Part shown: in pieces, positions 3,161 through 54,850 of the stretch
Numbering within the stretch: position 1 is the stretch's first letter
Layout: each line of letters begins with the position of its first letter
Source: Lama glama
Taxonomy: Eukaryota
Reading direction: 5' to 3'
Assembly: GCA_028534125.1 (NCBI GenBank)
Contig: CM052816.1
Location: 66,776,001 to 66,840,000 of the forward strand
DNA length: 64,000 bases
Translations under genes and position numbers: made by a program
Notes under the pieces: model-generated
What the model was told of the DNA's origin: nothing
The model's input: the letters and a program-made list of their open reading frames with translations, nothing else
Databases searched by the model: none

Positions 3161-4709
3161 ATGTCACTTGCTGTTCTTCCAGTCAAAAAGTATTCGGGTA
3201 CCAGAATAAACTCATGCCCTGTCAGTGATCTTTTCTCCAGGCCAGTTAAAATACTTATTTATGGCTGCTTTGATACGATTATGGTAGGTGTTTATTATGG
3301 TGAATCTACAGCAAGATCCTGAATTCCATTTGAATCATTGACAGACTGCATATTTACTGTGATAACCAAGAGAATTAACGTATTAAATATCTCATGGACT
3401 AGGACTCTAGACCCCTGTCAGCGTGGCAGGTCATGCTGACAGGTTATGAGTGTAGGACAGTTGGGAAGGTAGCTTTCAAACAATTACTTTTAACCTCACA
3501 GGAAGCACGTCAGAGTTGATGACTCTGCTGATGGAGAGTCTTGCTGGCCTCAGCAGCACTGCATTGTTTACTTTCAAAGCCATTTAGTTTCATCATTGGT
3601 CTATTTCTGGAATCTTCATACTACTTTTTCTGCTCATTTCTCTCCTATTCAGACTTAACTTCTAGCATCTTGCATGACTGAAACCTGTAACATGTCAATG
3701 TATGACATGCAAGGACTTCAGGACTTTTGTCTGCTATGTTTGTACTGTCTACACACTTTATATAGTCTTCTCTGCCAACCGTAGGACAGATTATTTGCTC
3801 CCAGTGTTCATTCAGCCAATTTTTATGAAATGGAAATAAAACCACTGTTAAACATAAAAGGAGAAAGCTTTCACATTATTTGGTTATTTCTATTCATAGT
3901 CTGTTTCAGCTATAAGATTTGCTTACAAACCACCTCAGGGTGAAGTCCCTTTGTACACAAAGTGAGGTAAGGTGCTTGCCATACAATACTAGACTAAGTG
4001 CTGGTATGCTCTGATTTTCCGTCTTTTACATTATGATAGTGATAGATTAAAATGACCTAAGAAGGGCAATGAAATGCTGTGTAAGCTGTGGAGAAGGATT
4101 ATGTTAGGTTTCTTAAATATCACCAACAGTGTTGTCATTTTCTGAGTTTAGGATAGATATCTCATGCACACAAATCTTGGGCCACAAGCTCCTATTTATA
4201 AGAACTACAACTTCATTTCCAATGTCTCAATTTCTATTTTTAGCCATAATCCCACTGGACTGGCAGGATTTTTAGACAAAAAGTTATTTTCATGGATTTT
4301 CTCACCTTCATTCCTACTCTCGAATCAACTTGGACACACTGGACCATCCTTTACATCAGAGGTCTTCTGTTTCCACGGTGCTAAGGGAGACCAAGCAGCT
4401 CCTCACCTCAGCCTTCTTACTTCTGTGACCCCAAGGAGAACCACCTTTTAATTTAAATCCTCATTTCTTTCAATTGAGATTCCACACTCAAACACTATTT
4501 TGCAATCCTTTTTATATATTTTCAAGAAAATATTTTCTTTGCAAAACTTTAAGTATCCATAAAAGCTTGGCATTTTGGAAAGTAAGTCATTTCCACAACT
4601 TGAACCGCAGGTGGTGAAGGTTAGCAAAACGTTAGGCATGGAAAGAGAAAGTCCAAAAAAAACAACATGGGCTAATATTTCAAAATGTTATCCTATTTTG
4701 TATGCTGAT

Positions 4710-6229: not shown

Positions 6230-6825
6230 AGCATCAATCACTTCAACATTTTTGCTGCAGCCACCAGAACTACCAGCCCATCTGCCCTGGATTATTACAA
6301 TGGCTTTTCAACTTGTTGGCAGCAGCCAGGGTGCTCCTAACACACTCGGCTCATGGGAATTTCCAGTGACTCCTCATCTCACTGAAAATAAGAGCCAAGG
6401 CCCTTGCTATGTCCCACAAGGCCCTAAGTGATGTGCACCTCCCTCCACAGTGTCTTTTTTGCCACCCCTTGGATGCTCCTGCCTCCCAGAAGCCAGGCGC
6501 CTGCCTCCAAGGTGGGACTTGGCCCTTGCTGAGCTCACCACCTGGGCTGCTCTCTACTTGCATGTACATGGCTCATTCTCTCACTCATCAGGTCTTTACT
6601 CAAATGTCACCTTACATGAGGTCTTCTCTAGTCATCCTGCAGGACCCTTTAGACTTTTTCCCATCTACCTACCATGCTTTAAGTTTCTTAGTACTTGCCA
6701 TGATCAAACATATTATGTATTTTCAGGGAAAGTCCACAGGGTAGGATTTTTCTCAGTATTGTTTACTGCTGTGTCCCCAGCACCGGGCCCATAAGAGGTA
6801 TTCAATAAACCTGTCAGTGAAGGAG
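6230..6825 (+). mobile_element. LINE-2 (L2a-like) 3' end
   Basis: CTGGATTATTACAAT..., CAAGGCCCTAAGTGAT and terminal TGCTGTGTCCCCAGCAC...TTCAATAAAC. Confidence 0.8.
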
Positions 6826-6934: not shown

Positions 6935-7065
6935 TTATTAGGATCACACCAGGTGCTGGTGACAAGTTGGGAAGCTATTGAAATCATCCAGGGCAAAGAG
7001 GCTGGTGGTTGGGAGCAGGGTGGCTGTAGTGGAGGTGGTGAGAAGTGGTCAGATCTCAGTAAAAA
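6935..7065 (-). mobile_element. LINE-2 fragment
   Basis: GGGTGGCTGTAGTGGAGGTGGTGAGAAGTGGTCAGAT is an L2 motif. Confidence 0.7.
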
Positions 7066-16375: not shown

Positions 16376-16489
16376 AGACTGCCTTTGAGAGTCAACTTTC
16401 ATGTCACGATCTCTCCAGGGTCTCCCTTCCAGGAAGTTAGCACCCTGTAACATGGTGATTGATTGACTGGCAGTCAGTCTATCAATCTA

Positions 16490-25400: not shown

Positions 25401-26451
25401 GCCAAAGTAAGATTCTTAGTATTATCTCTGCAACTGACAAATGTCCTGGGAAGATAAAGATCAATAATGGACCAAGAATAAAATGAGGAAGGGAAGGGAA
25501 GCCATTTAAATAATATTGTGTATTCTTTCTATCCTCTCTGCTTTACCCATTTATGCAAAAAATGGCAACTAAAAATAAATAAATAAAAGATGAGGAGGAA
25601 GAGAGCATAGGCCCTTATTTCTGATGCTTGGGCAGAGAAAATCTGCCTAATCTGACAGTTCAAAGCAGTTCCCAGGGTCTTGAAGTCAGATAAGCTGAAA
25701 GCAGGAGTGTGACAGATGCGATCCCAACGTTGAGGTGGGCCCCAAGGCTTTCCTTTCTGCAGTGGTATATTTGATGACTTTATTCCTTCATGAATGATGC
25801 CTTGACAGATGGTTTTTACTGAGTACTACACAGGACTCTTTGTCTAAGGCAAATTTCAGTCCTCAACTTAGACTTAACATTTTGTCCAGCCACCCTCTTC
25901 CGTAGTTTACAGAATTGAACATGTACAGATGAATCCACATGTTCTGACTCATAAAATCACTTCCTGCTTTGATAATTTTCACATACAAACACACATGCTT
26001 TTAAACAATATTTTGCTAGCACTCCCAAAAGGGCGATTGAGTTCTGAGAAACTATCATAGCTGAAAAAACCAGGAGAGGATTTTTATGAAATATAAAAGA
26101 TTTCATCCTAAGTCCCCTCTCCAGGATTTACAGGGAGCCATGAAAAGGATGTGACAGGCTCAGAGATCGTCGAGGTCAAGGCTGTAGACCTAGTAAGTGT
26201 TGGAGACGCAAGCCCCGGTTCGTTTGATGTGGAGTCCATTCTCTGACTCACTTCCATATGTCCCTGAAATGTGTAGGGAAGAAAGTGTTAACTGAAAGGC
26301 CCATGTAACAAAGAAAGCAGGAACAAATGGAAACTTCTTAAAGGGAAACTTTACAACAATAAATAATGCTTTATGACAACTAAGTCACAGGACTTTCACA
26401 GAACAGAAATGAGAAGAACCCAAAGAATAGAGTGTAGAAATGACACTCCAG

Positions 26452-27792
26452 TCTCTTCAGCAAATGGTGTTGGGAAAACTGGACAGCAGCATGTAAAACA
26501 ATGAAGCTAGAACACTCCCTTACACCATACACAAAAATGAACTCAAAATGGATCAAAGACTTCAACATAAGACAAGATAGAATAAACCTCCTAGAGGAAA
26601 ATATAGGCAAAACATTATCTGACATACATCTCAAAAATTTTCTCCTGGAAGAAATAAAAGCAAGAATAAACAAATGGGACCTAATTAAATTTACAAGCTT
26701 CTGCACAGCAAAGGAAACCATAAGTAAAACAAAAAGACAACCTATGGAACGGGAAAAAAAACTTCTGCAAATGAAACCGACAAAGGCTTGATCTCTAGAA
26801 TATATAAGCAGCTCATATGACATAATAAGAAAAAAACAAACAACCCAATCCAAAAATGGGCAGAAGACCTAAACAAGCAATTCTCCAAGGAGGAAATAGA
26901 AATGATCAATAGACACATGAAAAAATGCTCAGTATCACTAATTATCAGAGAAATGCAAATCAAAACTACAATGTGGCATCACCTCACGCCAGTCAGAATG
27001 GCCATCATTCAAAAGTCCACAAATGACAAATGCTGGAGAGGCTGTGGAGAAAAGGGGACCCTCCTACACTGCTGGTGGGAATGCAGTTTGGTGCAGCCAC
27101 TGTGGAAAACAGTATGGAGATTCCTCAAAAGACTAGGAATAGCCTTACTATATGACCCAGTCATCCCACTCCTGGGCTTATATCCAGAAGGAACCCTACT
27201 TCAGGATGACACCTGCACCCCAATGTTCATAGCAGAATTATTTACAATAGCCAAGACATGGAAACAGTCTAAATGTCCATCAACAGATGACTGGATAAAG
27301 AAGATGTGGTATATTTATACAATGGACTACTACTCAGCCATAAAAACCAACAACATAATGCCATTTGCAGCAACATGGATGCTCCTGGAGAATGTCATTC
27401 TAAGTGAAGTAAGCCAGAAAGAGAAAGAAAAATACCATATGAGATTGCTCATATGTGGAATCTAAACAAACAAACAAACAAAAACAAAGTATAAATACAA
27501 AACAGAAACAGACTCATAGACATAGAATACAAACTTGTGGTTGCCAAGGGGGCGGAGAGTGGGAAGAGATAGAGTGGGATTTCAAAATTGTAGAATAGAT
27601 AAGCAAGATTATACTGTATAGCACAGGGAAATATATACGAGATCTTATGGTAGCTCTCAGAGAAAAAAATGTGACAATGACTATATATATGTTCATGTAT
27701 AATTGAAAAATTGTGCTCTACACTGGAATTTGACACAACATTGTAAAATGATTATAAATCAATAGAAAATGTTAAAAAAAAAAAAAAAAGAA
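26452..27792 (+). mobile_element. Young 5'-truncated LINE-1 (camelid-type): frameshifted ORF2 C-terminus, 3' UTR, poly(A)
   Basis: ORFs 26501-26791 and 26902-27465 are L1 ORF2 ([17 protein letters not shown] cysteine-rich motif). Poly(A) at ~27774-27789. Exact 14-bp TSD AAATGACACTCCAG at 26438-26451 and 27793-27806. Confidence 0.97.
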
Positions 27793-27859
27793 AAATGACA
27801 CTCCAGCTTCTTCCTCCCCCTCAGCATGGGTGTTAACTTGAGCGTAATCTTTCTCTAGG

Positions 27860-28268
27860 AGTACCGGTTTGATAGGGCTGCCATAATAAACCACCATAGA
27901 CTAGGTGGGGTAATGGATGGAATTTTATTTTCTCAGAGTACTGGAGGCTGGAAGTCCAAGATCAAGGTGCTGGCAGGTTTGGTTTTTCCTGGGGCCTCTC
28001 TCCTTGGCTTGTAGATGTTTGCCTTCTTGCTGTGTACCTACACGGCCTCTTCACTTTGTGTGTGCAGCCCTGTGTCTATGAGAACACCAGTTCTCATAGC
28101 CCTCCTATGAGAACACCAGTCACACTGGACTGGGGCCCACCCATATGACATCACATCACCTTAATGACCTTCTCAAAGACCCACACAGTCAGATTCTGAG
28201 GTGTACTGAGAGTAAGGACTTTAACATATGAATTTGCGGGGAGGGGGCATACAATTCAGTCCCTAACA
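27860..28268 (-). mobile_element. MaLR solo LTR (MLT1A-like)
   Basis: TAGGGCTGCCATAA...CTGGAGGCTGGAAGTCCAAGATCAAGGTG...ACATATGAATTT...ACAATTCAGTCCCTAACA. Confidence 0.92.
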
Positions 28269-29519: not shown

Positions 29520-29617
29520 TTATATAGATAGATAGATACATGTATAACTGAATCACTATGCTGTCCACCTGAAATGAAAACAACATTGTAAATCAACTAT
29601 ACTTTAATTTAAAAAAA
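29520..29617 (+). mobile_element. Very short LINE-1 3' terminus (artiodactyl type)
   Basis: TGTATAACTGAATCACTATGCTGTCCACCTGAAA...ACAACATTGTAAATCAACTATACT followed by an A-tail. Confidence 0.85.
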
Positions 29618-30324
29618 GAACCCTATGAAGCATTCCCCTGATGTGTGCTGAGCCCTGATGAATTTCCTGGTCCTCTTTGGTATTTTATAAGCTTGGCTCC
29701 TGGTGTTTTTCCTTGGGATTATTTAGGAAAGGAAGAGGGGATGGGAAGAGGATGCTCATGATGCTTTATCTTTCCCAGGTGACTGGCCGCGCTGGGAAAA
29801 TGGCCCCAAGCCTGGCATGATTCAGAAGTCTGAGAAAGGACTAGGCGGCCGCTCGTGGGAAAATGATGACTTGTCATCGCTCAGCAAACATGTCATCAGA
29901 ATAGAGTGTGAGGAGTACCTGCACACATCCTGGACACGTCCTTCATGCAGGCGCTCCCCACGGTGAGCCTGCTGGAATCAGCATAAATCAGCATGAGAGG
30001 CTTTGTGAGTTCTCGCCCTCCATCAAGTTACAGATGAAGAATGTCACAGCAGCTCAGCACTGACGGTGACAGATGCTGCCGCAAGTGCCTTGGGGCTCTT
30101 TGAAAGCCCTCTTCCCAGCGTATTTATATTAAGTAATTAAATATTAAACTGTTTCAATAACTGTCTTCCTAAAACCGGGAAATTTTCATCAGTGGGAAGA
30201 TGATTCTGCAGACACAAGGATCATTGTGGCCTTCAGATGCTGGATTCATTGTGGTCTAAGGGAGGCCAAGAGAATCCAGAAAGATCCTCAGCATATAACT
30301 TCAAATAGAGGGCAGTCCATAAAA

Positions 30325-30395
30325 ATATCAAATCACTGTGCTGTCCACCTGAGATGAATATTGCAAATCAACTAGACTCCAATTAAAATAATAAT
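30325..30395 (+). mobile_element. Very short LINE-1 3' terminus
   Basis: AATCACTGTGCTGTCCACCTGAGA...ATTGCAAATCAACTAGACTCCAATTAAAATAA. Confidence 0.75.
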
Positions 30396-30704
30396 TTTAA
30401 AATATTTCAACAAATTGTTTCTGTGCTCATAGACTTAACTAGGGATATATGTGTATTAATATAACTTTGCATGCATATAATTTAGCATGTTCTTCAAAAC
30501 AAAAATAAAATAGTTCTACATAATGGGGGAAAAAAGAAGGATCCTCAGAAATCTAGTCGACATTTTCCAGATGGGGTAAGACTCACTAACTCTTCACATT
30601 AAACTGTCAGCATGGCTCTTAAGTTTTTTACACTTATCTTAAACTCCTATTAGGTCAAAAGACAGAGTAGAGTGGCTTGTGCTTTTAGTTTCTCTCTTAA
30701 AAAT

Positions 30705-30905
30705 AAGTGACACTATTTATTGATCTACTTGCCACCTGCTTTGCAAACATTCCTGCACTGAGTCTTTCCAACAATTCTGCAGGGTGGCAGCATTATTTCT
30801 AGTCTCTATGCTGAGAGTGAGGCTTGGAGAGGTTCAGTATCTTTCCCAATGGAGTGTTCCCAGTGAGTGGCAAAGCTGGGTTATGAGTCCTCATCTACCT
30901 GGCTT
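30705..30905 (-). mobile_element. MIR SINE
   Basis: GAGGCTTGGAGAGGTTCAGTATCTTTCCCAA...GTGAGTGGCAAAGCTGGG. Confidence 0.7.
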
Positions 30906-31099
30906 TCCTTTCTCATCTGTCATCTTCCTGTAACACCTTGCTATCTCTTCTCTCCAGGAAACCACATCCCTGGAGCCCAACAGCAGAATATGATTGAAGT
31001 CGCACAATACAGTTGACAGCACCAACCCCTTCCCCAGGACTCAGCTTTACTTGAAGTAGTCTCCCCTATTCAGTCATCTCTTTCTTGATTTGTTGGCTA

Positions 31100-31435
31100 T
31101 TTAATGACCAATTCTTTTGATCCAAGCAATGAGGGAGGGTGATGAACATGTTAGGGTCCCTACTCACATAGAGTTTGGTGTCTCATAGGGTTAAAAAAGG
31201 CAGTAAATAGTTAAGGAATAAATATTTGAAATACACTCAGAATAAGTGTCCTGAAGGCAGCAGAGGAAGAGGGAACTATAGAAAGTGATTTGAGGGAAAC
31301 TGGGTGGTCAGAGAAGGCTTCTCTGCTGAGCGATACTCAAAGTGGGAAGGAATGAGAAGAAACCAGTCTGGGAAAAGAGCATTCCAAGCAAAGGAACAGC
31401 TTGCACAAAGGCATGGAGGCTGGAAAGAGCCTGAT
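31100..31435 (-). mobile_element. LINE-2 fragment
   Basis: GTGGTCAGAGAAGGCTTCTCTG and GAGCATTCCAAGCAAAGGAACAGCTTGCACAAAGGC. Confidence 0.8.
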
Positions 31436-31471
31436 GACTACACATTTGCTGCTCTCTCCCCTCAGAGAGAG

Positions 31472-31855
31472 ACCTTTACTGAATGCTAAATACAAGGCAG
31501 TCTTTGTTACTTCAAAATGATCCAGGTGTGCATAATTCTCAACCATTTCCTACATGAAATCTGCTAAGATGATCATATAGATAAAAATGGCATATGAAGG
31601 AGTTAGATTCCAGGAGGAAAGCAGACAATATGTGGCTGGCATTTTTGAGCAATGTCTACGTTACTGTCACTATGTTGTGTCCCTTTCCATACATTATCCT
31701 ATTAATCCTCATTTAACAGTAGTGACCATTGTTATTTTATTTTAGAGATGAAGAAATAAGTCTTAGAGGGGTGGTACCAGTTTGCTAGGGCCACCATAAC
31801 AAAGCCTATAGACTGGGTAGCTTAAACAATAGAAATTTATTTCTCACAATTTCAG
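31472..31855 (+). repeat. Left arm of a ~380-bp inverted duplication
   Basis: Reverse complement of 33479-33857. Perfect blocks of 37, 32 and 37 nt. Manual alignment gives ~90% identity over the 31480-31768 core. Confidence 0.97.
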
Positions 31856-32169
31856 AGGCTAGAAGTCTGAGATCAAGGTGTTAGCAGGGTTGGTTTCTTC
31901 TGAGAACTCTCTCCTTGGCTTATAGGTGGGCTATCTTCTTGCTGTATCTTCATATCATCTTCCCTCTGTACATGTCTGTGTCTAAGTTTCCTCTTCTTAT
32001 TAAAATGCCAGTCATACAGGTTTAGGGCTCACCCTTAACCACCTCATTTTAATTTAGCTACTTCTTTAAAGACGTAAGTCCAAATATAGTCACATTCTAA
32101 GGTACTGGGGGTTAGGACCTCAGCATATGAATTTGGGGGTGGGGGCGGGACATACTTCAGCCCATAGTA
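31772..32169 (-). mobile_element. MaLR solo LTR (MLT1A-like) inserted into a MIR
   Basis: GTTTGCTAGGGCCACCATAACAAA...CATATGAATTTGGGGG...TTCAGCCCATA. The MIR core (AGATGAAGAAATAAGTCTTAGAG | GAGGTTAA...CAAGATCA) is split on either side of it. Confidence 0.92.
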
Positions 32170-32299
32170 GAGGTTAAAATAAGTTTCTCAAGATCAAATA
32201 GAGAGCAAGAGGTTCAGCCAGGATGTGAACTTTCCTCCACCCCTCTTTGTGAGCCTTAGAATGACTCTGAGTAGTAGTGTCTGCCCCATTTCCCTGGCT

Positions 32300-32760
32300 G
32301 GTGTCATTACGGAACACCTGCTCTGTGTCAGACCCTGCTGTGGATGCTGAGGGTGGAGCAGGGAGCAGGATTCCCAAGCTCCTGATGGAGCCTGCTGTGT
32401 CTTGGAGGAGACGGACTGCAAACAGGTAAACAAATGCACAACAAGGAAATTATACAAATACATGAAGTACCGTAAAGGAAATAAACAGGACGATGTGATA
32501 AAACGTGACTGGGTCGGAGAGGAGGCTACTTTTGAAAGGAAGGTCACAAACTTGTTCTCTAAGAAGGGAGTTTTGGGACTGAGACCTGGCTGGCTAGGGA
32601 AGGTGTCAGCCCTGTAACAGGCTAGAGGTGAGTGTTTTTGCAGAGGAGCTGGGACCTCTTTCTAGGCAGGACATGTTCCAGTGCTGCTCAGTATGGGTAT
32701 TAGGACGGGAATCTTGTCTTTGTAAAGTAGAGAAGAGTGGGGCATTGGGGTAGAAGCTGG
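32300..32760 (-). mobile_element. LINE-2 fragment
   Basis: GAACACCTGCTCTGTGTCAGAC, GGAGGAGACGGACTGCAAACAGGTAAACAAAT. Confidence 0.7.
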
Positions 32761-32985
32761 GAATGGTCGGAGTCTCCAAGTGGGAATCAGAAGCCTGAGG
32801 TTCTAATCTCAACTTCAGCACCTACTAGGTGTGGGATTTGGAAGGTCACTCTCTTCAGCTGAGCCTGATTCCTCCAACAGGAAGCAGGAATATCAATAAC
32901 ATTGCACCCACCCTGCCTCCCCCCAGAGCTTGTTGCTATGCACCAAAGAGAAAATACCCAAAATAGTGCTTCTCAAACTGAAAAA
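32760..32985 (+). mobile_element. MIR SINE
   Basis: GGAATCAGAAGCCTGAGGTTCTAATCTCAACTTCAGCACCTACTAGGTGTG...CTGAGCCTGATTCCTC. Confidence 0.7.
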
Positions 32986-33478
32986 TACCAGAGAAACAAA
33001 TGCAGGGTCAACGTGAAGACCTGCAGCCATTGTTTGCACGTGTCCATCTATGTGTATTTTTTCCTCCAACTTTTACCTACGTGTAATCCCCACTCAAGGC
33101 CTCCTACTGATGAAGTAATTAAATTTATTTGCCATAGTAAAACATATAAGACGGTAAGGAGGTGATTTCCCTCCATTCATTAAACACTCAGAGTGCTCAG
33201 AGTGAAGTCAGCTATTTTTTGTTAAAAGAAAGGCTCACAGTTCACACTACCATCCCTTCGAGAACTCCAGCATGACCAGATACACCCTGACCCTGCCTGG
33301 CCAGCACGTGGGCTGGCCAGAGCTTTGTTTTCAGGAAAGTCCACAGAGCTGGATGAGAGAACTACATGTGGATAACTTTCTGTGGATGTCCACATTTCAT
33401 AGCTAAGACCACCCCCCCACAGTACAGGGAAACAGTTCTCACTCCTTGACAACCAGGACCTCTGCCACAATGGGGAAT

Positions 33479-33857
33479 TCCAGAATTGTGAGAAAATAAA
33501 TTTCTATTGTGTAAGCCACCTAATCTGTGGACTTTGTTATGGTAGCCCTACCGCATGTCTCTAAGACTTTTATCTTCATCTCTAAAATAAAATAACAATG
33601 GTCACTACTATTAAATGAGGGTTAATGAGATCATTATGGAAAGGGACACAACATAGTGACAGTAACACAGACATCGCTCAAAAATACCAGCCACACGTTG
33701 TCTGCTTTCCTCCTGGAACCTAACTCCTTCATATGTCACAGTTATCAGTTTGATCATCTTAGCAGATTTCACATAGGAAATGGTTGAGAATTATGCACAC
33801 CTGGATCATTCTGAAGTAACACAATGAGTGCCTTATATTCAGCATTCAAAAAACGGT
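33479..33857 (-). repeat. Right arm of the inverted duplication
   Basis: Reverse complement of 31472-31855. Includes unique sequence, half a MIR and ~70 bp of the MLT1A end. Confidence 0.97.
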
Positions 33858-35094
33858 TGTTGTGTGAATAATGAATAAATGAATTTATAGACATAAGTGA
33901 TACACTGATGTCTATTCTCTTGGTAAGTGATTCCTTCCCAGTGCTATAACACATAGAGGCACCTACCTAAAGCAGAGGGAAAAATCTCATTACAAGAAAC
34001 ATAGCAAATCCATATCATCACCTTATATAGACATTTAACTGTGAGACAATTTGCTCATGAGAAAATCATTTCTAATTTCTTTCTGGAGCAAGATTATACC
34101 ATGAATCAAGCCTTCTTTTGTCTAAATCCTACTTCTTTCTCCCAGGAGAAAATCCCAGCCCTTAGATGTTTCAAGGACAGACCTTTACAAACAGACTAAG
34201 AATCAGGGCATTTCCCATCCCCCTACTTCCTGGAAGAAGTTCCTGCTTCTCAAAGGTTTGTCTGTCCAGTGCCAGCACAGCCACCTCCAGACACCCACGC
34301 CCTGCATTTCCTGTTGGGAACGTCCTTTGGAGTATCTGGTCACATGGATGAGAGAAACACACACACAAACACACTCAAATCCATATTTGTCAGAGGAAGG
34401 AAACATGGGAGTTGGAAAGGCCTCTTAATTTATGGTAAACATACATTGTTATTATTAACTTATCTCTGTCATCATTTGAGAATATTTCCACGGGGCAGTT
34501 TCTACCTACTGGGTACCCTACGTGGCCTTATGCCAACACCCAGATTTAGAAGCTCTTTGCTACTTCCCTATCTTTCTAACCAAAGAAAATTTGCATCTTC
34601 CAAATCTCACGTTAATTAGAAGTAGCTGCATGGTGATCAGATACAATCCACGCACCCATAGAATGCTTCCCCACCCCTCCTTTTTTCACCCATAAGGAGA
34701 GGAAACACTGGCTAGAAGGGAGGAAGGATTTTATTTTTTCTTGGCAAGTGACAGCATGTAGGTTTACACAGTGTACCCAGCCAAGTTGTTACTTCCTTTC
34801 ACTAAATGCTGAAGTTAGATTCAAATATACCAAAGGAATATAAGGAGCTACTGGATTATTTTTTTTAATTCCTTATCACACATAATAGCTTTCACATACC
34901 TTCCTGCAAAGATGTAAATATATTCAACGGGCAAGTCATCATCAATTCCAAAGAAGCAGCAAAAAGCTAGTTTCACTTATTTGTTTTGCTTGGTTTGTTG
35001 TGTTAACATCAGATTATTAAAGGTACATGCTCTCATTTCCTTTGTTTGTGCTTTATTAGAACTAATGACTGTTATTACTATTATTACCACTCTT

Positions 35095-35260
35095 CATAAT
35101 AACATCTTACCTTTGAACACAATCTTTCGTCCTGAAATATCCCAAAGCTGTTTACAACCTATGAAACAAATTAGACATGGGCCTCACCTCACTCTCCCCG
35201 AAAAGGTAGCCACTTCCTGCAGTGAAACCCAGCAGCTGTATTACGGCATGCCTAGCCTAG
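35095..35260 (-). mobile_element. Probable AmnSINE1 (ancient Deu-domain SINE) relic
   Basis: CTTTCGTCCTGAAATATCCCAAAGCTGTTTACAA and GAAAAGGTAGCCACTTCCTGCAGTGAAACCCAGCAGCTGT resemble, in the right order and spacing, the AmnSINE1 3' region as I recall it. Not database-verified. Confidence 0.55.
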
Positions 35261-38200
35261 CCCAGCCTGGGGTGGCACTAAATACAGAAAGGCCAAGAGA
35301 AGGCATAGTCAAGCCACCCAGCCACTAGCCATGGCACTATCAGGCCCAGAGAGACAAGCAGAGCAAAGGCCTTTTTTGAATTGTGGACCTTGATCAAAAG
35401 CCTAAAGAGCTGGAGAGATGCTCTGCCTTATCTTTTAGATCCAGGCCTAAATTAGAGGTGCAAGTCAGGAAATATGGTATTTCTATTAATGCTAAAGGGG
35501 AAAACAGTTTTGGAAGTTTTATGAGAAAGTTAGTATCTTTAAGTTAGAGAATTAACACTAGTGAGGCATTTAACCTCTGAGATCATCTGAACTGAATCCA
35601 AATTCCTGTTTCTCATGTTTGCCTTTATTATTCACCTTCCATGATGAGAATAGAGAGCTGCTTGAATCCCATCCAATTGTCTGTGCTGTGTTTTGTCCCT
35701 CAGACTGTTGATCTGACCACCAGGAACCATTTTTTCACTTCTAAATTCAACCACATTGCCTTTTTCCTGCAAGACCACCCACTTTTGACTTGGAAAAATT
35801 TCATCAGAAGGCATGTAAACAAATCATCTCATTCTCCAACATCTCTCTACTCCTCTGAACTGGGAGAAAAGTAGGCTTGTTTGTCACAGGTGTATTTCTG
35901 AGAGTCTGGGTGGACAGCAATAGTAATCCATAACAATTCATCTATGAACATTCTGAATTTTCCTGAGCAAGCCCCTCTGCAGCCCTGGCCCAGCCCCCAG
36001 CCCACCACACGTGATAGGTTCAGAGAGGACCAAAGCTCCTAGGTTCCAAACGACACTAACTGTGCTCATTCCTTCCATACTCAACTCTTCCTTCTGCTGC
36101 TGCCCAACCCTTTGTCATTAAACAACTTCTCTAGGGGAGAGGACCTCAGCTAGATTTCAGTTTCCTTATCAAGTCTGGGGAAATTTTTTCTGAACTGCAT
36201 TGTTAGTATAGCCTGATTAGAATACCATGGATTATGGGCCTGAGCTTTAGAAAACAAAGCAAGCAACACTCCTTTGAAATATGATATATATAGCCTTCCA
36301 GTCATCTTTGATAGTGACTCTTGGTAAAGTCTTAAATCCATTTAGGTATGCTGCTAAATGTGTTATAAAATTAGAAAAACACTGGCACCAGAATTTGTCC
36401 TTTAGGGTATTCATTTTTGAGTTGGAGGGGGAGCATCTAAGGGAAAGCAGATTTATAGCTGATGAATACACTCCGTACTTACCTACTTCCAGGGAGCCTG
36501 GAAAGTTCCAGGTCACCTGATTTTTCTACTTGCAAATTACAAAGCAGCTGTCATAAAGCAGAGGTGACTATATCATGCACCAAAATTCAAATTCCATTTT
36601 ACGTCACTTAATCATGATATAATCCTGTGTAATACGCAAAATAGTTTAAAGGATTATGTCTGCACAGAAGTCTATGGAAAACTCATTGTGAATTTTGAGG
36701 GGTGGGGTTAGTGTAGTTAAATATGACTTCAACTGACTTGATTATACGTTGCCATGGACTGCATTAACCAAATTTTAACTCTTTAACGAAGTGACTATAG
36801 ATTCTAAAATCTTTAGGGCTAGAATACCAGAGGATTTCTACTTATGAGTTAGATTTGTTGATGTAGAAAGACTTCTGCTGGTGTTCATAATTCTATTTTG
36901 CCTAGGAGAAGGAAGACAATGAGACATTTAAAAATATTTTGCTAATTCTAAGTCCCCCAAATCCCCTCAGATTATTGAGCCCAAGGGTTGGCATCACTGG
37001 ATTTGCCATATTCAGAACTCTGGCAGATGAGAAAGAAGTCTGAGGCACCAGCCCTTTGTATCTGACCTCAAGGGACCGCTTTGATTAGCTAAATGACCCT
37101 ACAGTCTTCCCTTGGAAATGGAAAATATTCCAAGATTTCTGTTCTTATCCAGATGTTGGAATGAATATGTGGAGTTGTTGGCTTATGAGAGTGAAACATA
37201 CACATGCATGCTTTTTATCATACAACTGCCTGGCCCTGCAGCTCTTACAGCGTCATCTCATCCATCTGGACCAGAGGAAGAGTGTGTAAGCGGAAGCCAG
37301 CTGGACCACAATTGGCACAGTTTCCGGTTCTGTTGACTCAGCACCATAGGCATGCTGTGATTCATTAGGCTTTTCACCTGGCTCTTCGCTTTATTAGAGA
37401 GACCCATGAAGTTGGAAGGTAAGGATTCTCCCTGAGGAAAGTTTGCGCTGACAGAATTACGGCATCCATAACAGCAACTGAAAAGTCTCAGGTACAAGCA
37501 TGAATAATACTAGAGAAAGATGAGAAAGTGCTTGACGGGTAAATGGTGAGATTTAAAATCTTTCTAGAACATAATACACTCTCTTCCCATTTTAAAATTA
37601 TAAATAAACATTTATCATCAAAAATTAACAGAGGAAATTAGTTTCCGTAGCATAAATTAAATTTTTCTCTGTTTTAAACAGGGGACAAAATGGAACTCCT
37701 CCTGTATGTGGTATCCTGTGCTGAAAGATGAGAGAAGTTTTAAAAAAATCATCTTGGCAACCCAGGCAGAATCCCTATCTTAGGTGTCTTCATATGTGAG
37801 TCATATCTAAAACTAGGACTACTGGGGTAGCAGAAAGTTGCAGTAAAAATCAAATCAACCTGCTAGAGAAACAATTTTCTCAAGGTTTTGCTGTACAAGT
37901 AAAGCTCCAGGCTTTGAGGAAAGAAAGTTATTTTCTGCTAGAAATCAAATGTTTAAAGAAGTACCTAATGTTGTCCTTGGGAAGGATGAGAGAAATGAAC
38001 ACATATCCTGAAGGGAAAAAGGTCAGGTAAGATAGTTTGAGTCAGGATTCAAAGCCAGAATCTAGAGGAACTAGTACTGGGAGAAAGGAAAAATAGGTGA
38101 GTTTCCTCGATGTCTTTTCAGGTGGGAAATAGCATCTTGCTTTAACTGCCAATAAAGCAAGAGCAGAATGAGCCAGAGGAAATGCATGTATCCAAGAAGC

Positions 38201-39728
38201 AGAAAAAAATGGATGATGCAGAAATCTGAAAACCCCTCCCAGGCTATATTATCTGCGTGTCCAAATGAACCCAAACTTTGAAGTTGATATGAGAGTTAGA
38301 TTAAGTGATGAGGTAGCTCACGGAGCCTTTGATGGAAACATAAATGAGGTAAAACTGATACATGGAGTGATACTGTTCATGTATGGAATATTGTCTAACT
38401 GAATGTTATGGGATTCTTTTGAAAACTTCTTTAAACGGTGAAACACCCAGTACACAAAGGTAATGATCACAAAGGTATACTGCAAATTTACCTTCTCGTT
38501 ACCTACTACTTTTCAGTTTTTCTCTCTAAAGGCCTTTTCCATAGCATAGAGAATTTGCTAGAATTTGCTGGGATCATTTGCCAACATTCCTGTGTCAGAG
38601 TCTCCCAAATCCAGTCTTTTTTTCCCCCCACTTTTCAGTTTGTGAAACGTTTCTGTGTGTGCAGGAGCAAGACAGTGACAGAGAGAGATAGAGTTTGATG
38701 GAAAAGGAAGGAGGGAGGAAAAGACAAAAGATGTTCCAGTGGACACTTGGCAAACACACACCTGAGAGCCATCCGCCTCACCTGAGCAACACCATTCTTC
38801 CCCCTGAAGCATCTCTTCCTTCTTTTCCCATTATATATATAGACACATACACATACATACATTATATATTATATATACACATTTTTCCCATTATATTTTT
38901 GAGATCCTGTTTAAGATATGTGACAAACAAGAGCCAAGGAAAATGAATTATTAGAGAACGTGAAATCTTAAACTTTAAATTTGATATGTGTACATCACAT
39001 ATTCTTCAGTGACATACATTATTGTATTAATGTATAAAGAATATATTAAGAATTTTTTAGTTAACTTCAAAACCCAAAAGGCATAAAATGTGCAAAGATG
39101 ACTTTTATTTCTAAGAATCCTAAAACCCCATTTCTTAGTCTACATAAAATACACTATTGAAATCATTTATTATGTAAGTTATATACTAGTTTCACACATA
39201 AACCAATCAGTTCCATGAGTTCCATGACTCATTCTTTCATGATTAATTAGAATGTATAAGGCTGGCTTTGCACAATTTAATGTGCTTGTGCCTTTTCTGT
39301 TACATTGCTGACTATAAAGTAGTGGTTCCCAAGGGACGAAGAGCACCACGTGTACTTGAAACAGCTCCTCAAGTGATTTTAATGCACTGCCTCCCCTACC
39401 CTCCCATCTTCAACAAAAGCACTGCCCTGGCTCACACCTGGAACACAGAGTCTCCACTTATTGCCAAAAACTCAAACTTTCAGGTGGAATATTGTCCTCC
39501 TCTTCTCCATTCCCCCTTTGATGACCATGTAGAAATTATAAGTGGAGAAACAATCAAAGAGAAAATTTTAATTGCTTTATTATTTTATTTATAGAAAATT
39601 GTCAAATAAAGATCTTATTAGAACTGGTTTCTGGAGATTGATAACCAATTATTTTTAGAGAAGAATCTCTTTGTTCCAAAACAAGCCAAACATTAATTGA
39701 GAAAACCATGAAATAAAAACTTCATTTA

Positions 39729-39994
39729 TACAGACTAGTGGTTACCAGGGGGGTGGAGGGTGGGAAGGGATAGACTGGGATTTTAAAATTGTAGAATAGA
39801 TAAACAAGATTACACTGTATAGCACAGGGAAATATACACAAAATGTTATGATAACTCACAGAGAAAAAATGTGACAATGAGTGTGTGTATGTCCATGAAT
39901 GACTGAAAAATTGTGCTGAACACTGGAATTTGACACAACATTGTAAAATGATTATAAATCAATTAAAAATGTTAAAACAAACAAACAAACAAAC
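39729..39994 (+). mobile_element. Young LINE-1 3' UTR insertion with a (CAAA)n tail
   Basis: Highly similar to 27527-27775. TSD AACTTCATTTA at 39718-39728 and 39995-40005. Confidence 0.95.
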
Positions 39995-47613: not shown

Positions 47614-47792
47614 TTTTTTTTAACTTATTTTTATTGAAGTATAGTCAGTTTACAGTGTTGTGTCAATTTCTGGTGTATAGCACAATACTTTGGTTACATA
47701 GGAACATACATATACTTGTTTTCATATTCTTTTTAATCATAAGTTGCTGTAAGATATTGAATATAGTTCCCTGTGCTATGCAGTAAGAAAAC
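47614..47792 (-). mobile_element. LINE-1 3' terminus (camelid/artiodactyl type)
   Basis: TTTTATTGAAGTATAGTCAGTTTACAGTGTTGTGTCAATTTCTGGTGTA...ATAGTTCCCTGTGCTAT. Confidence 0.88.
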
Positions 47793-54207: not shown

Positions 54208-54850
54208 GAATACTATTCAGCCATAAAAATGACAACATAATGCCATTTGTAGCAACATGCATGCCCCTGGAGAATGTCATTCTAAGTAAAGTAAGCCAGA
54301 AAGAGAAAGAAAATACCATATGATATCACTGATGACTGGATAAAGAAGATGTGGAATATTTATACAATGGAATACTACTCAGCCATAAAAACGACATTAT
54401 GCCATTTGCAGTAACACGGATGTACCTGGAAAACGTCATTCTAAGTGAAGTAAGCCAGTAAGAGAAAGAAAAATACCATATGAGATCGCTCATATGTGGA
54501 ATCTTAAAAAAAAAAAACATAAATACAAAACAGAAACAGACTCATAGACATAGAATACAAACTTGAGGTTGCCAAGGGGGCGGGGGGTGGAAAAGGACAG
54601 ACTGGGATTTCAAAATTTGTAGATACTGACAAGCATATGCAGAATAGATAAACAAGGTTATACTGTATAGCACAGGGAAAAAAATATATACAAGATCTTG
54701 TGGTAGCTCACAGCGAAAAAAAATGTGACAATGAATATATGTTTGTTCATGTATAAATGAAAAATTGTGCTCTACACTGGAATTTGACACAACATTGTAA
54801 AATGACTATAACTCAATAAAAAATGTAAAAAAAATTTAAAAAATTAAAAA
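54208..54850 (+). mobile_element. LINE-1 3' end (ORF2 end, 3' UTR, A-rich tail); the ORF2 end occurs twice
   Basis: Similar to 27287-27780. Segment 54208-54330 recurs, diverged, at 54370-54490. Confidence 0.93.

What the first reader, a model, noticed from the sequence alone, without database searches (positions are those of the whole stretch)
31472..33857. ~380-bp inverted duplication whose flank continuity suggests a 1.6-kb inversion with a duplicated breakpoint
Seen: 31472-31855 and 33479-33857 are reverse complements. By hand I count about 28 substitutions and 2 indels over the ~290-bp core. This is not two independent TE copies. The unit joins unique sequence, half a MIR and ~70 bp of an MLT1A end, with a locally altered MIR/MLT1A junction. 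The left arm continues inward into the complete MLT1A and the other MIR half, while the right arm's MLT1A part stops abruptly at ~33479. The right arm continues outward into an L2-like tail (GTTGTTGTGTGAATAATGAATAAATGAAT, ~33856-33885) that is absent outside the left arm. Inference: the ancestral order was X-revcomp(spacer)-arm-B, and an inversion by staggered breaks or template switching gave X-arm-spacer-arm'-B. The arms could also support recurrent re-inversion.
Basis: partly seen in the sequence, partly recalled or inferred. Interest (0 to 1): 0.72.

Follow-up and report, generated by a model that had tools for sequence, protein, structure and literature searches.

The report
Old micro-inversion scar, duplicated breakpoint
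A 385-base stretch of non-coding mammalian DNA occurs twice, back to front and 1.6 kb apart, most likely as the scar of an old 2-kb inversion that copied one of its own ends, a well-known and probably harmless kind of rearrangement.

Summary
The inverted pair is real: 31470-31859 against 33479-33858, with 28 substitutions and 2 gaps in the 288-column core and K2P 0.12 overall. It is a local duplication, not two transposon insertions.

The left arm runs inward into a whole LTR with a 4/5 target-site duplication, while the right arm's LTR piece stops after 72 nt. Support for the outer end is weaker. An L2-end motif and a TGAA run continue past the right arm only, but two profile tests did not confirm this.

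Each arm thus appears to have one old and one new end. That is the pattern of a 2.0-kb inversion with one duplicated breakpoint (INVdup; template-switch order 1-3-4-2). My odds: inversion about 0.7 (single event 0.45, duplication then flip 0.25); duplication plus later deletion without inversion 0.2.

No outgroup, read or population data could be obtained. No gene, RNA family or conversion tract was found. Present-day re-inversion is unsupported. The class is known, and this scan has noted it before in other genomes.

The parts
31135..31435 (-). L2-like fragment in left flank X; ends about 35 nt before the arm
   Evidence: read by eye, label recalled; no significant in-window homolog
31452..31471 (.). 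7-bp CT/GA stem with 6-nt loop at the inferred new junction X|left arm
   Evidence: 94 of 3,976 random 40-nt windows reach a 7-bp stem; low complexity, noticed post hoc
31470..31859 (+). left arm; outer end new (inferred), inner end ancestral
31470..31482 (-). inner part of an L2 3'-end motif, cut at about 31469/31470
   Evidence: 11 of 13 match to the L2-derived miR-95-5p motif (7 of 127,878 positions reach 11), then 1 of 8; inner part in the top 0.02% of an in-window matrix
31500..31665 (.). non-repeat core of the arm
   Evidence: one other copy in the window, the right arm
31665..31772 (.). first half of a MIR-like element, ending in the left target-site copy at 31768-31772
   Evidence: label recalled; in-window MIR profile E 0.063; target site
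31773..32169 (-). whole solo LTR (MLT1-type, label and strand recalled), crossing the left arm's inner end without a break
   Evidence: 286 of 376 identical to the copy at 27861-28268; 5-bp target-site copies alike at 4 of 5
32170..32240 (.). right target-site copy (32170-32174) and presumed second MIR half
   Evidence: MIR half read by eye, not found by the in-window profile
31860..33478 (.). spacer, 1619 nt; inferred to be inverted together with the left arm (block 31470-33478, 2.0 kb)
   Evidence: inference; orientation not tested against an outgroup
33466..33490 (.). 6-bp stem with 13-nt loop across the inferred new junction spacer|right arm at 33478/33479
   Evidence: 387 of 3,976 random windows reach 6 bp; not significant alone
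33479..33858 (-). right arm; inner end new, outer end ancestral (inferred)
33479..33550 (+). 72-nt LTR piece, cut at 33479
33551..33558 (.). 8 nt replacing 17 nt at the MIR/LTR junction, right arm only
   Evidence: the third LTR copy sides with the left arm
33846..33885 (+). L2-tail-like stretch crossing the right arm's outer end into flank B
   Evidence: 14 of 21 motif match plus 3 TGAA, the only such site of 127,878; not confirmed by in-window profiles
27861..28268 (-). independent LTR copy used as the internal reference; not part of the rearrangement

Best explanation
One old germline event inverted a 2.0-kb block and copied 385 bp at one breakpoint. The inferred ancestral order was X, reversed spacer, right arm, B. 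Synthesis stopped at the end of X, jumped about 2 kb ahead to the opposite strand at the outer end of the right arm, copied arm and spacer backwards, and returned at the inner end of the right arm (four-point order 1-3-4-2, the FoSTeS/MMBIR family). An offset (staggered) break filled in and rejoined gives the same product. The result is X, arm, spacer, arm', B, with new junctions at about 31469/31470 and 33478/33479. The arms then drifted apart neutrally. Shown: the duplication, its divergence, the cut LTR on the right and the whole LTR on the left. Moderately supported: the cut L2 tail on the left. Inferred: the inversion itself, the adjacency of X to the reversed spacer, and that it was a single event.
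For: Each arm has one end inside an intact older element and one end cut, on opposite sides: the LTR (target sites) and the L2 tail (inner 11/13 and outer 1/8 on the left; inner 9/13, outer 5/8 and 3 TGAA on the right). Two new junctions suffice. [quoted passage not shown] Mismatches are spread evenly (longest identical run 37 nt, p 0.44; sum of squared fragments p 0.11), as expected without later exchange. Short stems sit at both new junctions (7 and 6 bp), which is suggestive only.
Against: No outgroup or read data. An HMM from 7 hand-picked in-window L2 tails found neither arm end. A matrix from 6 anchored copies scored the outer part 0.3 bits on the right and 2.6 on the left, the opposite of the prediction; it had little power there (leave-one-out negative for 4 of 6). 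Rfam gave no L2-derived family at the tail. Nothing spans X and the reversed spacer, and base skew is uninformative. Plain inverted duplications under 1 kb within 5 kb are the commonest human inversion-type variant (54%; PMC4617611), so two-step routes have a high prior. A 2-kb copied tract is far beyond the 128-nt maximum in the short-range template-switch survey (PMC7954356).
Confidence: 0.45

Rival explanations
1. Two steps, same end state. First a 385-bp copy was inserted in inverted orientation 1.6 kb away (plain inverted duplication). While the arms were still nearly identical, recombination between them flipped the spacer, once or an odd number of times.
For: The first step is the commonest class and has this size scale (PMC4617611). 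Inverted repeats over 90% identical drive recurrent inversion in humans (PMC6748972). The product cannot be told from the single event within one genome (inference).
Against: It needs two fixed events. The smallest repeat in that human set is 654 bp. No conversion tract is visible, although early exchange would leave none. The 1000 Genomes analysis found no intermediates for its complex inversions.
Confidence: 0.25
2. No inversion. The left arm is the original and the right arm is an inverted inserted copy that at first included the L2 tail. A later deletion removed the tail beside the left arm, or the tail-like run beside the right arm is unrelated to the arm.
For: The firmly shown facts (whole LTR left, cut LTR right) fit. 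The outer-end evidence is the weak leg. Plain inverted duplications are common.
Against: It needs a further deletion and a hidden third junction in B, or a chance landing beside a run found at 94 of 126,882 positions in register with the motif.
Confidence: 0.2
3. A maintained functional element or a live switch: the arms pair as double-stranded RNA in a transcript, or the spacer still flips within populations.
For: The arms can pair over 340 positions (duplex -506 kcal/mol). Of 31 transitions, 21 would leave G.U pairs on a minus-strand transcript (p 0.07).
Against: 12% divergence, gaps and a junction deletion-insertion look neutral. No Pfam hit in 283 of the 403 open frames of 50 aa or more (the 283 of 56 aa or more were scanned) and no Rfam family. 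The G.U bias is not significant. Transcription was not tested.
Confidence: 0.05
4. Assembly artefact, or two independent transposon insertions.
For: Reads could not be checked. Part of the arm is repeat-derived.
Against: The arms differ at 39 of 358 aligned positions (28 of 288 plus 11 of 70), far beyond allelic difference. They share a non-repeat core and the same junctions. They agree against the third LTR copy at 13 sites, against 4 and 7 the other ways. There is no gap nearby.
Confidence: 0.02

Closest known systems
dupINV / INVdup complex structural variants (Collins et al. 2017, PMC5338099; passages read)
   Same: An inversion with a duplication at one breakpoint, attributed to MMBIR/FoSTeS or repair of simultaneous breaks.
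   Different: Those are present-day human variants, mostly above about 5 kb resolution and called against a reference. This one is 2 kb, old and inferred from cut repeats.
Four-point template switch, type 1-3-4-2 / 3-1-2-4 (Loytynoja and Goldman 2017, PMC5453318; Walker et al. 2021, PMC7954356; passages read)
   Same: [quoted passage not shown]
   Different: Copied tracts there have median 12 nt and maximum 128 nt; here it would be about 2,000 nt. The ancestral sequence needed to assign a type is not in hand.
Staggered-break inversions of Drosophila (Ranz et al. 2007, PMC1885836; passages read)
   Same: Inverted duplication of non-repetitive breakpoint sequence that gives the polarity of the change (17 of 29 inversions).
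   Different: Those are chromosome-scale, often with duplications at both breakpoints. No second duplication was found here.
Inverted duplications ('Inverted Dup') of the 1000 Genomes phase 3 set (Sudmant et al. 2015, PMC4617611; passages read)
   Same: A copy under 1 kb inserted inverted within 5 kb of its source, which is this size scale.
   Different: In a plain inverted duplication one copy keeps both old ends. Here each copy appears to keep one.
Recurrent human inversions between inverted repeats (Giner-Delgado et al. 2019, PMC6748972; passages read)
   Same: A spacer between inverted repeats.
   Different: Their repeats are over 90% identical and 654 bp to 24 kb long; these arms are 380-390 bp at 86-90%.

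Membership tests
Inversion with duplicated breakpoint (INVdup, 1-3-4-2, staggered break) | Two inverted copies of once single-copy breakpoint sequence | tested here: met
   (single copy tested within the window only, not genome-wide)
Inversion with duplicated breakpoint (INVdup, 1-3-4-2, staggered break) | One copy joins the inverted segment ancestrally while the other is cut there | tested here: met
   whole LTR with target sites on the left, 72 nt on the right
Inversion with duplicated breakpoint (INVdup, 1-3-4-2, staggered break) | The other copy joins the outer flank ancestrally while the first is cut there | tested here: inconclusive
   favoured; not confirmed
Inversion with duplicated breakpoint (INVdup, 1-3-4-2, staggered break) | Spacer reversed relative to the ancestral or outgroup sequence, with one arm there | not testable with these tools
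   no genome held; no runs listed; no contig hit
Inversion with duplicated breakpoint (INVdup, 1-3-4-2, staggered break) | Arose in a single event (no intermediate state in relatives) | not testable with these tools
   needs several species
Short-range template switch | Copied tract of tens of bases | tested here: not met
   about 2,009 nt against a maximum of 128 nt; same geometry, but not a member of that size class
FoSTeS/MMBIR | Microhomology or templated insertion at the junctions | tested here: inconclusive
   longest nearby exact matches are 9-10 nt and mostly low complexity; short stems at P 0.024 and 0.097; the ancestral flank is unknown
Plain inverted duplication | One copy keeps both ancestral ends | tested here: inconclusive
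   the left outer end looks cut (inner part), but a later deletion would look the same
Recurrent inversion between inverted repeats | Long repeats over 90% identical | tested here: not met
   380-390 nt at 85.9% overall and 260 of 288 in the core, against 654 bp or more
Recurrent inversion between inverted repeats | Both orientations present in a population | not testable with these tools
   no runs listed
Independent transposon copies | Homology confined to repeat sequence, each copy with its own insertion site | tested here: not met
   shared non-repeat core and junctions

The most novel reading that the evidence does not exclude
A 2-kb template switch whose two junctions both carry fold-back stems, leaving 385-bp arms that went on flipping the spacer in some lineages or pairing as double-stranded RNA in a minus-strand transcript (21 of 31 transitions favour G.U there). 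It would be a dated natural test of how short and how diverged inverted repeats can be and still invert, in the size gap between short template switches (up to 128 nt) and recurrent inversions (repeats of 654 bp or more).
Probability: 0.07. Interest if true: 0.45.

Novelty: new member of a known kind. Interest (0 to 1): 0.15.

Why it matters
If right, it is a tidy fossil of a known mutational process, readable from one genome because two old repeats are cut on opposite sides. It would serve as a lineage marker and as a mid-size data point between short template switches and large complex inversions. No gene, RNA family or phenotype is implicated, and it opens no long-standing question unless both orientations turn out to exist among living animals.

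Tried and rejected
Own genome: none held. Sequencing runs for 29700-39600 with the library word PACBIO: none was listed, which is no evidence; without run ids no reads were laid. Exact-pattern scans of metagenome contigs for the arm core and for L2 copies: 0 loci each. Earlier findings, relatives and near: nothing; a words look-up with 7 words found 0.

Genes and RNAs: 0 Pfam hits in 283 open frames of 56 aa or more, out of 403 frames of 50 aa or more; short exons could be missed. Rfam at gathering score: 0. Rfam at E up to 10 gave 7 and 1 sub-threshold, unrelated matches at the two outer ends.

A second duplication at the other breakpoint or a templated junction insert: none found. Gene conversion: not detected; the LTR part is not significantly more diverged than the core (11/70 against 28/288, p 0.20). 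Base skew as an orientation marker: noise larger than signal (sd 0.11 over 38 tiles). In-window L2 and MIR profiles: too weak. Structure within one arm: folds no better than shuffles (z +1.44). The 13-bp hairpin at 33887-33915 as a trigger: 18 such hairpins occur in the window, so it was rejected as evidence.

Literature searches for this locus or for camelid micro-inversions returned one unrelated paper each. The locus has no name, so absence from print is not established. No supplements were read; supplementary tables of the human inversion papers could refine the size comparisons.

Full report
Observation. The finding is in the sequence. A self-comparison of the window gives one inverted match of this kind, 31480-31851 against 33848-33484, 85.9% over 375 columns, E 1e-119; the other 15 hits listed are, by my reading, interspersed-repeat copies or short matches. 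The core aligns with 260 matches, 28 substitutions and 2 gap openings, and the LTR part with 59 matches and 11 substitutions. Over 358 columns the K2P distance is 0.12, bootstrap 0.084-0.16. I place the arms at 31470-31859 and 33479-33858, with a 1619-nt spacer. The non-repeat core has no other copy in the window. The arms share that core and the same junctions, so they are a local duplication and not two insertions. Their divergence makes an assembly artefact very unlikely, although reads could not be checked.

Inner ends, well shown. An independent LTR copy at 27861-28268 aligns along the whole left element (286 of 376) but along only 72 nt of the right arm, which stops at 33479. The left element has 5-bp target-site copies at 31768-31772 and 32170-32174, alike at 4 of 5. 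So the join of left arm to spacer is old and the join of spacer to right arm is new. The right arm also carries 8 nt in place of 17 nt at the MIR/LTR junction; the third copy sides with the left arm, so the change is on the right. The names MLT1A, MIR and L2 are recalled; no repeat library was available.

Outer ends, moderately supported. I used the L2-derived miR-95-5p sequence printed in PMC6433296 (passages and section 8 read) as a short probe. The left arm's last 13 nt match it at 11 of 13 (7 of 127,878 positions do as well) and the next 8 nt at 1 of 8. The right arm matches at 9 of 13 and 5 of 8 and is followed by three TGAA; it is the only site of 127,878 with at least 14 of 21 and three TGAA. 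Three TGAA in 30 nt occur at 94 of 126,882 positions, in 11 loci. That L2-clade elements end in short tandem repeats is stated for fish elements in PMC2653535 (passages); the mammalian unit is recalled and the criterion was chosen after seeing the site. Three other checks did not confirm the tail. An HMM from 7 hand-picked in-window tails hit neither arm. A matrix from 6 anchored copies scored the outer part higher on the left (2.6 bits) than on the right (0.3), though it failed leave-one-out on 4 of 6 of its own copies there. Rfam returned no L2-derived family.

Mechanism. If each arm has one old and one new end, the ancestor read reversed spacer, right arm, B, and two new junctions give today's order. 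Nothing in the window shows that X lay next to the reversed spacer; that step is inference. The geometry is type 1-3-4-2 of the four-point template-switch model (PMC5453318, passages), the dupINV/INVdup class of human complex variants (PMC5338099, passages), and the staggered-break pattern of Drosophila inversions (PMC1885836, passages). Sequence alone cannot separate template switching from an offset break. Short stems sit at both new junctions (7 bp, reached by 94 of 3,976 random windows; 6 bp, by 387 of 3,976). They were noticed after the fact and one is low complexity, so they carry little weight.

Rivals. Inverted duplications under 1 kb within 5 kb of their source make up 54% of 229 characterised human inversion sites (PMC4617611, passages). 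Such a copy followed by a flip between the young arms gives the same end state. Such a copy followed by a deletion beside the left arm gives the same visible ends with no inversion at all, at the cost of a hidden third junction. My odds, which are judgement and not computed, are 0.45 single event, 0.25 duplication then flip, 0.2 no inversion, and small remainders for function or artefact.

Re-inversion and function. Recurrent human inversions have repeats over 90% identical and 654 bp or longer (PMC6748972, passages). These arms are shorter and no more alike, and show no conversion tract (longest identical run 37 nt, p 0.44). No Pfam family was hit in 283 of 403 open frames scanned and no Rfam family in the window. 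The arms could pair in a transcript, but a G.U bias of 21 to 10 is not significant (p 0.07) and transcription was not tested.

Age. At 5e-9 per year (2.5e-8 per generation, 5 years; PMC8605555, passages) the distance gives about 12 million years; at a recalled typical rate of 2e-9, about 30. Camels split from cattle 55-60 million years ago (PMC3514880, passages) and from llamas 11-25 million years ago (PMC1939714, passages). Other even-toed ungulates should therefore show one arm; whether all camelids share both is open.

Novelty. This is a new instance of a known class. A 2-kb copied tract exceeds the 128-nt maximum in the great-ape template-switch survey (PMC7954356, passages), but lies within the size range of human inversions (median 1,697 bp). 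Earlier notes of this scan describe the same kind of scar in a phage, bacteria, a fungus and another genome (unchecked AI notes, not used as support). Searches for this locus or for camelid micro-inversions found nothing relevant, which does not show absence from print. The decisive outgroup and read tests could not be run.

Noticed in passing
window 33887-33915: 13-bp near-perfect hairpin (one mismatch, 3-nt loop) 29 nt outside the right arm; one of 18 such hairpins in the window, so not unusual.
   Followed up: yes
window 33541-33568: The 8-nt replacement in the right arm is flanked by two tiny inverted repeats (a 5-bp stem, and a 4-bp stem seen by eye), as if partly templated by local fold-back; 5-bp stems occur in 30% of random windows.
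   Followed up: partly
window 26440-27795, 39728-39993, 47614-47785, 54208-54849, 402-628: L1-like 3' ends, 72-91% alike (label recalled). Their divergence overlaps that of the two arms. The copy at 54208 abuts the 500-N gap.
   Followed up: no
window 28074-28121: Inside the third LTR copy a short stretch is repeated and forms a 12-bp hairpin, a possible small template-switch product.
   Followed up: no
window 29551-29616 and 30331-30391: Two short L1-end-like fragments 780 nt apart, 79% alike.
   Followed up: no
window 6268-6340 and 6938-7010: A 73-nt inverted pair, 77% alike; nature not examined.
   Followed up: no
window 3414-3443 and 16457-16487: 12-13-bp hairpins with one mismatch, candidates for short template switches.
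   Followed up: no
whole window: No Pfam or Rfam hit and CpG observed/expected at or below 0.25 throughout: intronic or intergenic. Scan notes place it on one assembly piece with WNT9A, ADAM19, ABLIM3 and CAPSL, 12.4 Mb before CAPSL (unchecked).
   Followed up: partly
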